This document shows, piece after piece, positions 18,701 through 32,700 of a DNA stretch of 64,000 nt. The translations under genes were made by a program, and so were the position numbers. Where the stretch lies: the NCBI GenBank assembly GCA_051362555.1, contig CM120642.1:7750001-7814000 (forward strand), given 5' to 3'. Source of the stretch: Lingula anatina. Lineage: Eukaryota; Animalia; Brachiopoda. Below the pieces are notes generated by a model that made no database searches, was not told the origin of the DNA, and was given only the letters and a program-made list of their open reading frames with translations. The stretch's first letter is position 1. Every line of letters begins with the position of its first letter.

Positions 18701-19829
18701 ATATTTCAAGCCTCCTGAAATGTTCATGCCAAGACTGTCCCCAGCCTTGCCCCAAGTACCTCCTGTCATGTTTCACGGTCTTCCTAAGCCTGTCCCGGTG
18801 CACGTACTTCCTCAATCGGTAAGTTTACACGGTAAATATAGCGATGACGTCATTTCTTACTCAGTGTGGCGTCACTTCATCAGTGTGACATCACGCCCAA
18901 AACCAAACCTGTTGTCAATTTGAAATATATCTCTGAGCAGTAGTAGTAACATAGCATGAATTCACTATATAAAAATGAAAAATATCTACAAGGAAAGACT
19001 GTTTGTCACCAAAAACCCTCATATTTAATGCTTCTTTCTTTTTCTCTTTAGTCCTCAAAGTTTGAGTTGATAAATGGTGGATACGGCGTGAAGAACCCGC
19101 TGTTGACGCAGGCACAAAGTGAAATAGTTAACCAAGAATTAGGCAAACTAGGCGCACAGACAGAAGACAACAAGTTCGTCTGCCGTGTTTGTCAGAAAGT
19201 GTTCCCATTACAACGCCTCCTGAACCGCCATCTTAAGTGCCACAGTGACATCAAGCGGTACCTTTGTACGTTTTGTGGAAAAGGGTTTAACGACACTTTC
19301 GATCTGAAACGACACACACGAACGCATACGGGTAAGTGGTTTTAACCCCGAAATGCATTATGTTACATAAAGAATTATAAACCTATATCAATCGTTTCTA
19401 GTGGTGTTAGTAACGGATGGTTGTTAAGATGAAAAAGGAGATATTATACAACGTTCCTTTTTGAGTGGAAGAACTCAATAACTGGACCTGAATAATTCGT
19501 AAAGAATCACTGAACTGATTCCAATTATTTATCTTGTATTTACAGGTGTTCGCCCTTACAAGTGCAGCCACTGTGACAAAGCTTTTACACAGAGATGTTC
19601 GCTGGAGTCCCACTGCAGGAAAGTGCACGGTGTCTCGTTTGACTTTGGCTACAAGGAAAGGAGAGACAAAATGTACGTTTGCGAAGACTGTGGCCATACG
19701 ACAAGGAACCCAGAGAAGCATTATATGCATTTGAAGGAAAACCATCCGCACAGCCCCGCCCTGCTCAAATGTTACGATAAGAGGCAATTCAAATTTCAAA
19801 GTGACAAAATCCCTACACTCGTGGAGTAA
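12733..19829 (+). CDS. ovo: Ovo/shavenbaby/OVOL-family C2H2 zinc-finger transcription factor, paralogue A (424 aa)
   Basis: Exons 12733-12889, 18265-18818, 19052-19331 and 19546-19829 (1275 nt, all GT-AG, phases 1,0,1). N-terminal [25 protein letters not shown] motif; fingers with [45 protein letters not shown] and YVCEDCG; C-terminal [15 protein letters not shown]. These are all ovo hallmarks. Confidence 0.95.
14839..14888. repeat. (CT)n microsatellite in ovo-A intron 1
   Basis: Directly visible. Confidence 0.95.
16873..16920. repeat. (AAT)n microsatellite
   Basis: Directly visible. Confidence 0.95.
19147..19342 (+). repeat. Left arm of a 196-bp inverted repeat (ZF1-ZF2 coding tract shared with ovo-B)
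   Basis: Reverse complement of 31712-31907 with a single mismatch (19159 vs 31895). Confidence 0.95.
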
Positions 19830-21340
19830 GATGATAGACACTTCAGGATAAAGTGCTGCTCTTAAAAAAGTCCTGTATATCATTCAAGGCGACTTGGTCA
19901 AAGAAACACTATTCTATGTGATGTCAGATCGTTCCCACAATGCATGGACAAAATGGCGACACGTTCACAGGAAATTGTACACGCAGGCTAAGCCTGACTA
20001 TAATTCACTAATGTATTTTGTATATATTTTTATTTATTATGTAATTCACTAATTGTAAAATATCTCATCAATGCCATAAAGACCGCGTGTGTTTCCCAGC
20101 ATTTGCAATAGGTAGCTCTTAGACATATACCTTTTTTGTAGCACTGGACCGGCAATAAGTGCAATAATTTAGCAGACGATTTTCCCAACCGTGTTAATAC
20201 CCGGGTGTAGATGCGTCCGTAGTTTGTCTACTGTTTAGATAATGTAGTCTAACAAAATATTTCACTTAATAACCAGAAACCCCTTTAGATGAGATCTAGA
20301 TGTAAACTAAAAACAACAAACTTTGTCTGGACAACTACCCTGACTTATTGGTGCTTCTCTCTTATCTCTTCAATTAGGCTTTAATTTACTTATTTAATCT
20401 CTGACACATGGTGCTTATGTGGTATAGGTAGGCAAACATTAGATAAATATGCAATTTCTATAGAATACCCTTCCAAAATGAAAAATATATAAAAAGTTAG
20501 ATTTCAATATTTGTGAAAACGGTAATATTGATTGACTAGTATTGATAGAATCATAGAAGAGTAGACTAGACACAATTTCTAACAATAGGCGCTTCACTTA
20601 AAAAGTGTTACACTATGTTTTTCTACTAAGTTGGCTTCTCCGGCCATTGTGCAATATTTGAGAAATAGTGAAATATATAATGTTATCGGTCACTTCAATG
20701 CAAAATATGTCAAAATATGTAATATATTTTGTAGTAATAGTTGTATTTATAAAATGTAATATCAGAATGTTTCCCAGTCACAACTTAAGTTGAATGTCAA
20801 ACCTGTATATAAATGTAGTAATAGTACGTTTGAAAATAATTATCAAGCTTAGCCTCTCTTTGAAAATAGTTATTATCACAGAAAGCTGCTGGTGGTTAGA
20901 AGAAATGCCTTACTGATTTATTCGATCACAGCTTATCGACAAAGCTCTTTATGGCTAGGTTTAGTTTTCAAAACGATAATTTTTTTTCGATGACATAGAA
21001 TAATTTAGAAACATTACATTGCTTATAACCTGGCGAACTTGTATTAATAAACACAAAGATTACACAATCTCACCAACAGCACAGATTGATATATAAGGGT
21101 TATCTCCAATTTGCCAAACTTGAGATAGATGCATTAAATATTCGAGCTTCCCATGAATAGAATAGATGGCGTGGGTTGGACAAGATGGCTTCAATTACTA
21201 CACATCGGCCGGACGGTGCAATAATACAAGGCTTGTAGAATGCTGTAGAGCTAAACCCCTCTGCAATAAATTTTTCTGAAACATATGTTGTTGCCTTTGT
21301 TGTTTATGTATATATATTTGTGTTATTATTAATAAAGCTC
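19830..21340 (+). promoter_or_regulatory. Probable 3'UTR of ovo-A with polyadenylation signals
   Basis: AT-rich sequence after the stop; AATAAA at 21046, 21265 and 21331; several miRNA seed matches and TGTATATA Pumilio-type elements. Confidence 0.55.
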
Positions 21341-29750: not shown

Positions 29751-32700
29751 TCATACTACTCTCTCGGCAATCTGTCCTTTCGTCTCCAGCAAAGACGGAA
29801 TCCTGTCGTTACTAAATTTGAACTGTCTCTTGTCGTAACACTTCAACAGGGCCGGACTGTGAGGATGGTTTTCTTTGAGATGTTCATAGTAGGCCTCTGG
29901 GTCGGAGGTGGTGTGCCCGCAGTCCTCACAGACGTACATCTTCCCTCGCCTCTCTTTGTAGCCGTACTCGAATGTGATGCCGTGGACTTTCCTGCAGTGG
30001 GATTCTAAGGAACACCGCTGAGTGAACGCCTTGTCGCAGTGGCTGCACTTGTAGGGACGGACACCTGTATTATGTAATACAATTCAATAAGTTGTTTTTC
30101 AGTTTTTATGGAAGTAAAATAACTTAATATATTTTCATTTTACACTTATGCTTCTAATGCTTTCACTGAAACGAGCGATGGACTATCTAAGACACAAGTC
30201 CTTATGAAGCTAAAAATAATAGAAAAATTGTACTGCTTAGGGGAGTCATGAATCTGTTTCATCATGATTGAATAAATCAAAGTAAGACAATTACAAATCA
30301 GTTTTATGGATGAACATCCGCTTCCATCTCTCATTTCACCTTGGTAAGCGGCCACAGGTAACATAAAAACACAGTGCTTAAAAAATAGCGTCCCCATGCG
30401 TCCTGCCAATGGCAGTAAATTTTTAGATGTTAAAGTTCGACCACAAAATAAAGCCACCATACAGCTAATCGCTGAATCTAGAGCACAGGGAACGTTTTCA
30501 GAAGTCGATATTCGGCACCCCGGTCCGTTAACACATATCATGTATGTCATAAACGTAAAAGTACCTCTAAGATTCATGAAGCGCAAAGGCAGTTGCGGTT
30601 TGGGGAATTAGTTGTCAACATAAACGTGAATATAACGGATGTAAAGACTGCTAATACTTTGCTTAATATCTATGTGTGGTAATTTACAGTGGCATTTATG
30701 GAAAAACGTGTTGGTTAATGCGTCACACTTAATTATTTTGAGGACAACTTCTTTCCATCACATGGAATACCCAGAGATCCGCCCAACGCAACTTGTTGAA
30801 ACTGTTTTATTTTCAAACACGCCTCGATTTATATGACAATTTAACTACAAGATTAAATGCAGAAAAGAATGTCAAACTCGTAATTAACTATTAGGTTGCG
30901 TATAAGCACGGGTCGATTTGTAAACGTGTCACAAATCTAAGATAGTTCAGAAAGTCAAAAATGGTACTGTCCAGAATTCCGTCTTTGCCTAATAGGTGCA
31001 AATAGTTGAACGTTAAAAAAAAAGATCAGATTTTAAAGATGCATCAATTATAACTTGAAAACCGTGATATTTCAGGTGACATAAACATCTTATCTAATTG
31101 GCCTCACACATTTTTACATAGCACTACCACACATTATAAAGCTCGTTAAAATATAATACAATATTCACACAAAAAAACCTTTAACCCGAAACATCCATAC
31201 AAAATGCATTGACCCCCCTACCTACACGCACGCGCACGCACGCGCGCGCGCACACACACACACACACACACACACACACACACACACAGACACATAAACA
31301 ATTGCTTTAATTCGCCGGTTGAAAACTGAAGCTCTTAATATATCTTGCTAAATGAGCGCGTTAGATCTTAAAATAGCGGACTTTATATGTGCCTGGGAAT
31401 TTCAACTTGTACCCTTGAGCACCAAGGTATACCATACCAGAAATCGTTTACAGAATAACGATTCAAAAACCATTGTGGTCTGAGTTTTTCAGATTTTGAT
31501 TCACTCTCTCAACAAAGAGAGAGATACTGGTGAATTTTACTTTTTTGAACAGGTTTATAAATCGTGATTTCCTCGACGCATTTGGTTAGGGTATGACATT
31601 GCGCGAGAATAAAAGAATTGTTAAAATGCCCAAGGAAATGTATTTATTTGCAATCCTTTGCTCAAAAGTTCTATTGTTTTTTTTTTTCATATAAATTATA
31701 GTTGCAGGTGCAAACCACTTACCCGTATGCGTTCGTGTGTGTCGTTTCAGATCGAAAGTGTCGTTAAACCCTTTTCCACAAAACGTACAAAGGTACCGCT
31801 TGATGTCACTGTGGCACTTAAGATGGCGGTTCAGGAGGCGTTGTAATGGGAACACTTTCTGACAAACACGGCAGACGAACTTGTTGTCTTCTGTTTGTGC
31901 GCCTAGTAAAAAAAAATAGGACATAAAATCTTAGAAGAATAAGGGATTCTTCTTATCTTATTAAAATAGAAAAGAATTGTGGCAACTACTTTTCAACGAA
32001 AGGAACACTGATAATGGAACAAAGTATAGTCACGGACATTACACAAAATTACTTTGGTCTGACATTTGGCAGTCCACTTACACAGTGTTATGTTTAGTCT
32101 AAAACAGTAGCCGATTCTTCTTCTTCTTGTTTAATTTAATTGCACCACTACTGATTTTTCTTAAGTCAAAGAAGACAACTTTTAGTCAAAGACTCAATGT
32201 TTAATCTTACTTTCGTTTGTGAAATAGACCCTAGGTAACAACACAGCGCCTTTAAAACTTAATTTCAAGTCACGCATAATATTATAATTCATCATACCAA
32301 GTTTCCCCAGCTCCTGGCTGACTAGTTCAGCATGTGCTTGAGTCATCATAGGGTTCTTCATTCCGTAACCACCATTTACCAACTCCACTTTAGGTACCTA
32401 AAACATAAAAATTTAAATAATAATAATGTTTACGTTGTAGCTTAAAATAGATATAGCGTTGTAGGAATGAAGATGGTCAAATTGCATTCGAAGTTTAAGA
32501 TCAATCTGGAAAATGCCTTTTGTCAAAGGCTGAAAATACTGACATTGTCGGAAATGCTTACCGGAAGTGGCATAATGGGAATGTGCTTGGGAAGGGTCTC
32601 ATAAAGGGACCTGGTAGGCGCTCTGGAAACAGGCGGCTGGTGGGGGATAGGGACCTCGTGGTGTTTGTAAGTCGGCAAGGCGGGAAGTGGGCACATCGGT

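What the first reader, a model, noticed from the sequence alone, without database searches (positions are those of the whole stretch)
19343..31711. 12.4-kb potentially invertible cassette that would swap last exons and 3'UTRs between the two ovo genes in frame
Seen: the 196-bp arms are inverted and each includes the same phase-1 splice donor. The segment between them holds both terminal exons (ZF3-ZF4 + C-tail) and both 3'UTRs. A crossover within the arms flips the segment and yields two intact chimeric genes (A-5'/B-3' and B-5'/A-3'). Known: inverted repeats mediate recurrent inversion toggling together with conversion (e.g. the human FLNA-EMD inversion). Inference: a flip-flop polymorphism here would re-couple promoter and effector domain with a different 3'UTR and C-terminus.
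Basis: inference. Interest (0 to 1): 0.75.

Follow-up and report, generated by a model that had tools for sequence, protein, structure and literature searches.

The report
Gene conversion between facing ovo paralogs
Two old, tail-to-tail copies of the ovo zinc-finger gene in a lamp shell share one almost identical exon, likely because the copies overwrite each other (gene conversion, a known process); the DNA between them could in principle flip and swap the gene ends, but the few samples examined show no sign that it does.

Summary
The anatomy is as described. Two convergent ovo/OVOL genes of Lingula anatina (gene B differs from RefSeq XP_013405634.1 at 3 of 450 residues) share a 196-bp inverted tract, identical at 195 bases, covering zinc fingers 1-2 and the same phase-1 donor. 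A crossover there would give two open chimeras (434 and 440 aa). Elsewhere the genes are old duplicates (36 of 72 third positions differ in the last exon). The tract is real: contigs of two other DNA samples branch at it, and raw RNA reads carry it. It varies among alleles: B carries a three-site synonymous patch in some samples and gene A's letters in others. That fits repeated non-crossover gene conversion. The flip is unsupported. In two deep RNA runs from one study, 131 of 133 and 58 of 60 reads leaving the tract enter B's own last exon, and the RefSeq allele keeps the window's coupling. No record bridges a tract and only about four haplotypes were sampled, so a polymorphism is not excluded. 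Close precedent: Capitella Dlxa/Dlxb. This scan noted the same kind in an arthropod odd-skipped pair (e1-7392561, unchecked).

The parts
12733..12889 (+). ovo gene A, coding exon 1 (SNAG-type MPRAFLVRK start; the motif name is recalled)
   Evidence: RNA reads of X12 entering exon 2 carry this exon's end as a loose end
18265..18818 (+). gene A exon 2 (Pro/Ser-rich, poorly conserved region)
   Evidence: RNA depth 5-9 in X12
19052..19331 (+). gene A exon 3 (NGGYG motif, ZF1, ZF2); lacks the intron that splits this region in gene B
   Evidence: PF00096 twice
19147..19342 (+). left arm: homogenised tract (ZF1-ZF2 coding plus 11 nt of intron 3)
19264..19285 (+). three-site synonymous patch (19264, 19270, 19285; gene-B positions 31790, 31784, 31769) where some B alleles differ from A while the window's B allele equals A
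19343..31711 (.). 12,369-nt segment between the arms (both last exons and 3' ends); would invert on a crossover, not observed inverted
   Evidence: RNA tests
19546..19829 (+). gene A last exon (ZF3, ZF4, C-tail, stop)
   Evidence: splice joint across the 214-nt intron in RNA (most joint reads are gene-B reads laid on A)
19830..21300 (+). gene A 3'UTR (approximate end)
   Evidence: RNA depth to about 21,200; AATAAA at 21046 and 21265
29751..30064 (-). gene B last exon (ZF3, ZF4, longer C-tail, stop)
31712..31907 (-). right arm: last 5 nt of B intron 3, B exon 4 (31902-31723, 180 nt) and 11 nt of intron 4
32298..32397 (-). gene B exon 3 (NGGYG motif)
   Evidence: B-type letters in RNA reads upstream of the arm
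32562..33073 (-). gene B exon 2
   Evidence: matches XP_013405634.1
40149..40395 (-). gene B coding exon 1 (SNAG-type MPRAFLVRK start)
   Evidence: matches XP_013405634.1

Best explanation
Two old, expressed, tail-to-tail ovo/OVOL paralogs share a near-identical ZF1-ZF2 exon that is likely kept alike by repeated short, non-crossover gene conversion, while each gene kept its own last exon in every sample that could be tested. Inferred mechanism: purifying selection holds ZF1-ZF2 identical in protein, which leaves this exon as the only stretch alike enough for strand invasion between the two copies 12 kb apart. A break in one copy is repaired from the other, probably in cis through a fold-back. 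Copying stops where homology ends: at B's 395-nt intron 3 on the left (absent in A) and 11 nt into the diverged intron on the right. Some alleles are fully overwritten (window B); others retain a short unconverted patch (the X12/X13 B allele). A crossover outcome would invert the segment, but is likely rare for 100-180 bp of perfect homology.
For: Shown. (1) Mosaic divergence: 0 of 57 third-position differences in the arm core against 36 of 72 in the last exon and 10 of 20 just upstream; Fisher p 4e-11. Introns are unalignable beyond the tract. The same exon differs from an unrelated animal's ovo at 34 of 52 third positions (L079), so silent sites are normally free. (2) The tract includes intronic bases on both sides, which points to DNA-level copying rather than cDNA copying. 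(3) It is real in other samples: contigs branch at the arms at doubled depth (X9, X10), and B transcripts in X12 differ from A's arm at only 4 listed sites. (4) It is polymorphic. B has G/A/A at 19264/19270/19285 in X12 and X13, while the 2-3 A-type reads keep the window letters. Window B, X10 and X19 (0/12, 0/12, 0/14) have A's letters. Three synonymous changes within 22 nt have p about 0.04 as scattered mutations. Variants also seem shared across the paralogs: in X18 all 7 reads at 19159 carry B's letter although only 2 of 7 are B-type at 19150; in X19, 13 of 14 reads carry a variant at 19306 although 3 of 8 reads upstream are A-type. (5) Coupling is unchanged in X12, X13 and RefSeq. Literature: Capitella Dlxa/Dlxb shows the same anatomy (PMC3199776, section 15 read). 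Recombination fell 20-fold when uninterrupted homology went from 232 to 134 bp in mouse cells, and the human meiotic minimum appears to be 300-500 bp (PMC2583991, passages).
Against: Recurrence rests on few alleles and low read counts (X18 7 reads, X19 14 reads). One old conversion followed by point mutations is not excluded. Reads were not phased; counts are per site. In X9 the collapsed contig carries the patch letters, but contigs drop variants and its depth cannot say whether 2, 3 or 4 copies carry them. The direction of copying is unresolved: the patch and the ACTAG overlap at B's acceptor suggest A to B, while 19159 in X18 suggests B to A or a later mutation in A. The same review reports NAHR on stretches under 50 bp when repeats are only 5 kb apart, so short arms do not forbid crossovers. 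The homology thresholds come from mammals, not brachiopods.
Confidence: 0.72

Rival explanations
1. One conversion event homogenised the exon once; all later differences among alleles are ordinary point mutations.
For: Only 1-4 listed differences separate the arms in any sample, near the allelic variation seen in the flanks (X10 contigs: 4 differences in 132 nt and 2 in 313 nt). The clustering p is only about 0.04.
Against: Three linked synonymous changes in 8 codons resemble the roughly 50% third-position divergence outside the tract. Sites 19159 and 19306 appear variable across both paralogs.
Confidence: 0.17
2. One reading: the 12.4-kb segment is a segregating flip-flop inversion that yields A5'/B3' and B5'/A3' chimeric genes in some animals.
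For: The geometry and frames allow it. Conversion shows that the arms do recombine. Tail-to-tail RHD/RHCE do produce inversion-recombination alleles, although that allele is complex and gives a null phenotype (PMC12962860, abstract and passages). Sampling here is only about four haplotypes.
Against: A-type reads at the start of the last exon are 2 of 133 (X12) and 2 of 60 (X13), no more than upstream of the arm (2 of 56; 4 of 31). In X12, A's 3'UTR depth (7.4 just after the stop) follows A's exon 2 (5-9), not the arm (64-121). RefSeq B has the window's coupling. No chimeric protein appeared among the 120 listed hits of a search with B's last exon (weak). The arms are about 8 times shorter than the shortest repeat in a set of 22 human inversions (1.6 kb).
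Confidence: 0.08
3. Selection on the nucleotide sequence (an RNA element or exonic enhancer) keeps both copies identical without any exchange.
For: None specific; the exon encodes the most conserved part of the protein (49-50 of 52 residues shared with several annelid and nemertean ovo proteins).
Against: Silent sites of this exon vary freely between species (34 of 52 differ from L079) and among Lingula alleles. Identity extends into intron bases beyond the donor consensus.
Confidence: 0.02
4. An assembly or polishing artefact copied one exon over the other.
For: The window's B arm lacks the patch seen in B reads of X12 and X13, which a polishing error could mimic for those three sites.
Against: Independent raw reads and contigs show near-identity of the arms. 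X10 and X19 show patch-free arms in both genes.
Confidence: 0.01

Closest known systems
Capitella teleta Dlxa/Dlxb (PMC3199776; passages and section 15 read)
   Same: Spiralian transcription-factor duplicates, tail to tail, about 18 kb apart and divergent overall. [quoted passage not shown]
   Different: Homeobox rather than C2H2 fingers. Here the last exon has escaped conversion (74-77% nt identity), and allele-level variation of the tract is seen in population reads.
Hexapod engrailed/invected (cited in passages of PMC3199776 and PMC6444547; original paper not read)
   Same: Ancient tail-to-tail duplicates with ongoing conversion in the DNA-binding domain.
   Different: Documented across many species; here only one species could be examined.
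Human FLNA-EMD inversion HsInv0389 and other inverted-repeat inversions (PMC3961182; passages and section 14 read)
   Same: Inverted repeats flank a segment that could flip by non-allelic recombination.
   Different: Repeats are 11.3 kb (set range 1.6-24 kb) and both orientations are observed; FLNA and EMD are turned round, not cut. Here the repeat is 196 bp, lies inside coding exons, and one orientation only was seen.
RHD/RHCE (PMC12962860; abstract and passages)
   Same: Tail-to-tail paralogs about 30 kb apart that form hybrid alleles, including an inversion-recombination allele.
   Different: More than 90% alike along the whole gene; the described inversion is complex, has a non-homologous breakpoint and causes loss of antigens. 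The Lingula genes are alike over one exon only.
ovo/shavenbaby/OVOL family (PMC3380836; abstract and passages)
   Same: Four C2H2 fingers at the C-terminus joined to a variable, low-complexity N-terminal region.
   Different: A linked, convergent pair with a converted exon; the passages searched in that paper do not mention gene conversion or lophotrochozoans.

Membership tests
ovo/OVOL transcription factors | C-terminal tetrad of C2H2 zinc fingers | tested here: met
   PF00096 twice in A exon 3 and twice in B's last exon; A's last exon scores below the cut-off but aligns finger for finger
ovo/OVOL transcription factors | best named homologues are ovo, OVOL or lin-48 proteins | tested here: met
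   ovo-like lin-48 of Lineus and Tubulanus, insect ovo at 65-79% identity; the RefSeq label Gfi-1b on the Lingula protein itself disagrees and looks like an automatic name
Interlocus gene conversion between linked paralogs (Dlxa/Dlxb type) | tract of identity including silent sites inside otherwise diverged paralogs | tested here: met
   0/57 vs 36/72 third-position differences; p 4e-11
Interlocus gene conversion between linked paralogs (Dlxa/Dlxb type) | tract extends into non-coding sequence and ends abruptly | tested here: met
   11 intronic nt at the donor, then no significant intron similarity
Interlocus gene conversion between linked paralogs (Dlxa/Dlxb type) | polymorphisms shared between paralogs or tract differing among alleles (ongoing conversion) | tested here: inconclusive
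   suggestive at 19159, 19264-19285 and 19306, but unphased and on few reads
Interlocus gene conversion between linked paralogs (Dlxa/Dlxb type) | paralogs closer to each other than to orthologs in a sister species that has both genes | not testable with these tools
   no eukaryote genomes held; contigs of organism B gave no usable exon
Recurrent inversion polymorphism mediated by inverted repeats (FLNA-EMD type) | near-identical inverted repeats flanking the segment | tested here: met
   195/196 identical, but far shorter than the 1.6-24 kb of the human set
Recurrent inversion polymorphism mediated by inverted repeats (FLNA-EMD type) | both orientations found among individuals | tested here: inconclusive
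   only the window's coupling in X12, X13 and RefSeq; no record bridges an arm; about four haplotypes
Recurrent inversion polymorphism mediated by inverted repeats (FLNA-EMD type) | chimeric transcripts from an inverted allele | tested here: not met
   at most 2 of 133 and 2 of 60 reads, all accountable to gene A itself, in two runs of one study
Recurrent inversion polymorphism mediated by inverted repeats (FLNA-EMD type) | opposite orientation in related species | not testable with these tools
   no sister-species locus could be fetched

The most novel reading that the evidence does not exclude
The converted exon also serves as a crossover site, so Lingula populations carry a flip-flop inversion that swaps ZF4, C-tail and 3'UTR between two developmental regulators in frame: a natural, reversible exon-swapping switch kept alive by gene conversion over only 196 bp.
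Probability: 0.08. Interest if true: 0.65.

Novelty: new member of a known kind. Interest (0 to 1): 0.25.

Why it matters
As it stands, it adds an ovo/OVOL pair in a brachiopod to the short list of tail-to-tail transcription-factor duplicates with a converted DNA-binding exon. Unlike the Dlx case, public reads suggest the tract differs among living alleles, so rate and direction of conversion could be measured. In practice it warns that probes, primers, read counts and gene trees built on ZF1-ZF2 cannot tell the two genes apart. Gene A, though expressed, was not found in three protein searches. If the inversion did segregate, it would be a compact test of how often conversion between short arms resolves as a crossover. 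Its protein effect would likely be modest: ZF1-ZF3 stay the same, and only 15 of 93 last-exon residues and a 10-residue tail change.

Tried and rejected
No whole genome is held for this window. Two searches with A's exon 2 found no protein at E<=0.001 (1,553 and 192 candidates), and A was not among the 120 listed of 216 hits to B's last exon, so A's coupling could not be checked in a second assembly. The representative search with P0002 was swamped by many-finger proteins and gave no brachiopod ovo. The run search listed no RNA holder; RNA runs came in by species label only. X15 (12 reads, none on the arm) and organism B's contigs (X11) were uninformative. X18 and X19 have too few reads to test coupling (X19: A-type 3/8 upstream, 0/5 and 2/7 downstream). 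Single 150-nt reads cannot span the 178 nt between the nearest window markers, and contigs break at the arms, so DNA orientation was not tested directly. GC3 does not identify the donor or a past swap (A 5' 0.54, arm 0.55, last exon 0.58; B 0.54, 0.53, 0.69). Outgroup residues at the 10 diagnostic last-exon columns split evenly between A and B. No residual older tract was found in the introns (local score 23 vs null mean 18.7, 7% of shuffles reach it). A cDNA-mediated origin was rejected because intronic bases are in the tract. None of the 80 metagenome loci (up to 8.3 kb each) showed a second, inverted copy of the exon. Literature: no paper on Lingula ovo paralogs or their conversion was seen in the listings, and ovo does not occur in the main text or the 3 held supplementary files of PMC13121700; other supplements and subscription papers were not searched.
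Full report
What is there. The window holds two convergent genes. Gene A (+) has coding exons 12733-12889, 18265-18818, 19052-19331 and 19546-19829 (424 aa). Gene B (-) has 40395-40149, 33073-32562, 32397-32298, 31902-31723 and 30064-29751 (450 aa). All introns are GT-AG and both frames are open. Both proteins begin MPRAFLVRK and end in four C2H2 fingers. B's last exon is 100% identical to Lingula anatina XP_013405634.1, and the next named hits are ovo/lin-48 proteins of annelids, nemerteans and arthropods. The whole B protein differs from the RefSeq protein at 3 of 450 residues, all in the N-terminal half, so the window is a different allele. 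Both genes are transcribed: RNA run X12 covers A's exon 2 at depth 5-9 with loose ends that read into A's exon 1, and B-type reads dominate the shared exon.

The observation. The arms are 19147-19342 and 31907-31712, 195 of 196 bases identical. Nothing else in the window comes near: 153 shared inverted 31-mers against 7. In gene B the arm is the whole 180-nt exon 4 plus 5 nt of the acceptor and 11 nt of the donor. In gene A it is the 3' two thirds of exon 3 plus the same 11 nt. The 12,369 nt between the arms hold both last exons. Joining A's first three exons to B's last, or B's first four to A's last, gives open frames of 434 and 440 aa.

The arms are a conversion tract in old duplicates. Among codons for the same residue, third positions differ at 10 of 20 just upstream of the arm, 0 of 57 in the arm core and 36 of 72 in the last exon; four-fold sites in the last exon differ at 14 of 19 (Fisher p 4e-11). 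Introns 2 and the introns after the arm show no similarity above shuffles. Selection on protein cannot fix silent sites: the same exon in an unrelated animal differs at 34 of 52 third positions (L079). The tract carries 5 intronic bases beyond the donor consensus, which points to DNA-to-DNA copying. Its left end coincides with B's 395-nt intron 3, which A lacks. L079 has an acceptor at the same base and a 180-nt exon, so the intron likely predates the duplication and A lost it; 28 of the 29 genomic loci examined lack it, but they were selected with an intron-less query.

It is not an artefact. In DNA run X9 a single 183-nt contig covers exactly 19160-19342 at depth 105, and contigs of depth 55.8 and 57.8 lead into it from A's exon and from B's intron. 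In X10 a 119-nt contig at depth 82.8 is fed by contigs of 36.1 and 40.1. Loose ends at 19147-19150 and 19342 read into B's introns. Raw B-type RNA reads of X12 match A's arm except at four listed sites.

The tract varies among alleles. In X12 and X13, B reads carry G, A, A at 19264, 19270 and 19285 (102/105, 107/110, 110/112; 40/43, 43/46, 47/50), all synonymous, while the few remaining reads keep the window letters in numbers matching gene A's share. The window's B, X10's collapsed contig and all X19 reads (0/12, 0/12, 0/14) have A's letters there. Three such changes within 22 nt would arise by scatter with p about 0.04; three in eight codons is what unconverted sequence would look like. In X18, 7 of 7 reads show B's letter at 19159 though 5 of 7 are A-type at 19150. 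In X19, 13 of 14 reads share a variant at 19306 though 3 of 8 are A-type upstream. These point to repeated exchange, but counts are low and unphased. X9's contig carries the patch, yet its depth cannot say how many of the four copies do. A single old conversion followed by mutation stays possible (0.17).

The inversion. No read or contig bridges an arm, so orientation was tested through transcripts. In X12 and X13 gene B far outweighs gene A. If one chromosome were inverted, about half of the B-promoter transcripts would continue into A's last exon. Observed A-type reads at 19550 are 2 of 133 and 2 of 60 (exact upper 95% limits 5% and 12%), no more than upstream of the arm (2 of 56, 4 of 31). 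Using distinct starts, P is 2e-12 and 3e-9 against a half. A's 3'UTR depth in X12 (7.4) follows A's exon 2, not the arm. RefSeq's allele of B also keeps the window's coupling, with the caveat that it too was assembled across the repeat. Against over-reading: X12 and X13 come from one study and share alleles, X18 and X19 are too shallow, the tool drops some reads without notice, and A-type depth dips to 2 reads beside the arm. With the window, RefSeq and that study this is about four haplotypes, which leaves a 95% upper limit near 50% for an inverted allele (my arithmetic). The low probability I give the toggle therefore rests partly on prior knowledge. The human inversions of PMC3961182 (passages and section 14 read) use repeats of 1.6-24 kb, 11.3 kb for FLNA-EMD. 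PMC2583991 (passages) reports a 20-fold drop in recombination from 232 to 134 bp of uninterrupted homology, but also events on stretches under 50 bp when repeats are 5 kb apart. The patch-bearing B allele leaves 104 bp uninterrupted. A past flip that became fixed would be invisible in one species and was not testable.

What a flip would change. ZF1-ZF3 are identical in A and B. The last exons differ at 15 of 93 residues, five of them in the ZF4 helix region, and B's tail is 10 residues longer. By canonical C2H2 numbering (recalled) these include positions -1, +3 and +6, but the same positions vary freely among the annelid and nemertean orthologs, so ZF4 is probably not a base-reading finger. 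The larger effect would likely be the exchange of 3'UTRs. This is inference.

Comparison with what is known. Capitella Dlxa/Dlxb is the closest case: tail to tail, about 18 kb apart, homeobox identical up to the intron and 12 nt into it (PMC3199776, passages and section 15). Engrailed/invected is cited there and in PMC6444547 (one passage). RHD/RHCE shows that tail-to-tail paralogs can yield inversion-recombination alleles, over much longer homology and with a null result (PMC12962860, abstract and passages). I saw no paper on this Lingula pair in the listings. The scan's own notes record the same kind of event in an arthropod odd-skipped pair (e1-7392561) and likely conversion in receptor pairs of this genome (e1-10589193); both are unchecked AI notes, read after the Dlx paper was found, and did not change my reading.

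Verdict. A real, correctly described structure. It is best explained as a gene-conversion island in the ZF1-ZF2 exon of two old ovo paralogs, probably still active (0.72). The flip-flop inversion is possible on paper, unsupported in the samples tested, and not excluded (0.08). New member of a known kind; interest 0.25.

Noticed in passing
window 12733-19829 (+): Gene A is expressed but was not found in three searches of the protein collection; it may be missing from public annotations. Gene B's RefSeq name (Gfi-1b) does not fit its ovo/OVOL relatives.
   Followed up: partly
window 19147-19151 and 31907-31903; L079 3976-4181: Gene A lacks the phase-1 intron that B and L079 have in the Gly codon before ZF1. 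A's coding bases there (end of Lys-Leu, ACTAG) equal the last 5 nt of B's intron, so copying from A can cross B's acceptor without destroying it; the B allele in X10 reads ACCAG.
   Followed up: partly
window 19173 / 31881: A non-synonymous variant (Lys to Arg, just before ZF1) lies inside the tract in X10's B contig and in 8 of 11 reads of X19.
   Followed up: no
runs X10, X18, X19 against X9, X12, X13: X10 and X19 (X18 is from X19's study) share alleles that differ from the window in both genes, and X10 holds only 0.32 of the window's words; this may be a divergent population under the same species label.
   Followed up: no
window 19554-19588: Another expressed locus matches about 35 nt at the start of ZF3 and then runs on unlike the window (17 reads in X12, 9 in X13, three contigs in X9); its continuation has no convincing match in the window. 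Probably a different C2H2 gene.
   Followed up: partly
window 49770-50156, 58859-59398, 63444-63860 (-): Three tandem copies of an exon (78-84% nt identity) ending in a shared TGFG..ADWIVYN motif; no Pfam hit at E 0.01. It recalls farnesoic-acid O-methyltransferase-like domains (recalled, untested).
   Followed up: partly
window 53656-56754 and 59811-62569: Direct duplication of about 3 kb at 76% identity, part of the tandem array above.
   Followed up: no
window 52855-53568 (-): 237-codon open frame with a weak BACK_BPM_SPOP hit below the curated cut-off (E 4e-4).
   Followed up: partly
window 5193-5442 and 50767-51029: Second inverted pair, 87% identical over 266 nt and 45 kb apart, with poly-G/C runs; probably a dispersed small element.
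   Followed up: no
window 25984-26417: 22-bp minisatellite of about 20 copies with strong G skew inside the segment between the genes.
   Followed up: no
window 443-1275: Open frames on the minus strand that look like exons of a neighbouring gene; no Pfam hit for 446-883.
   Followed up: no
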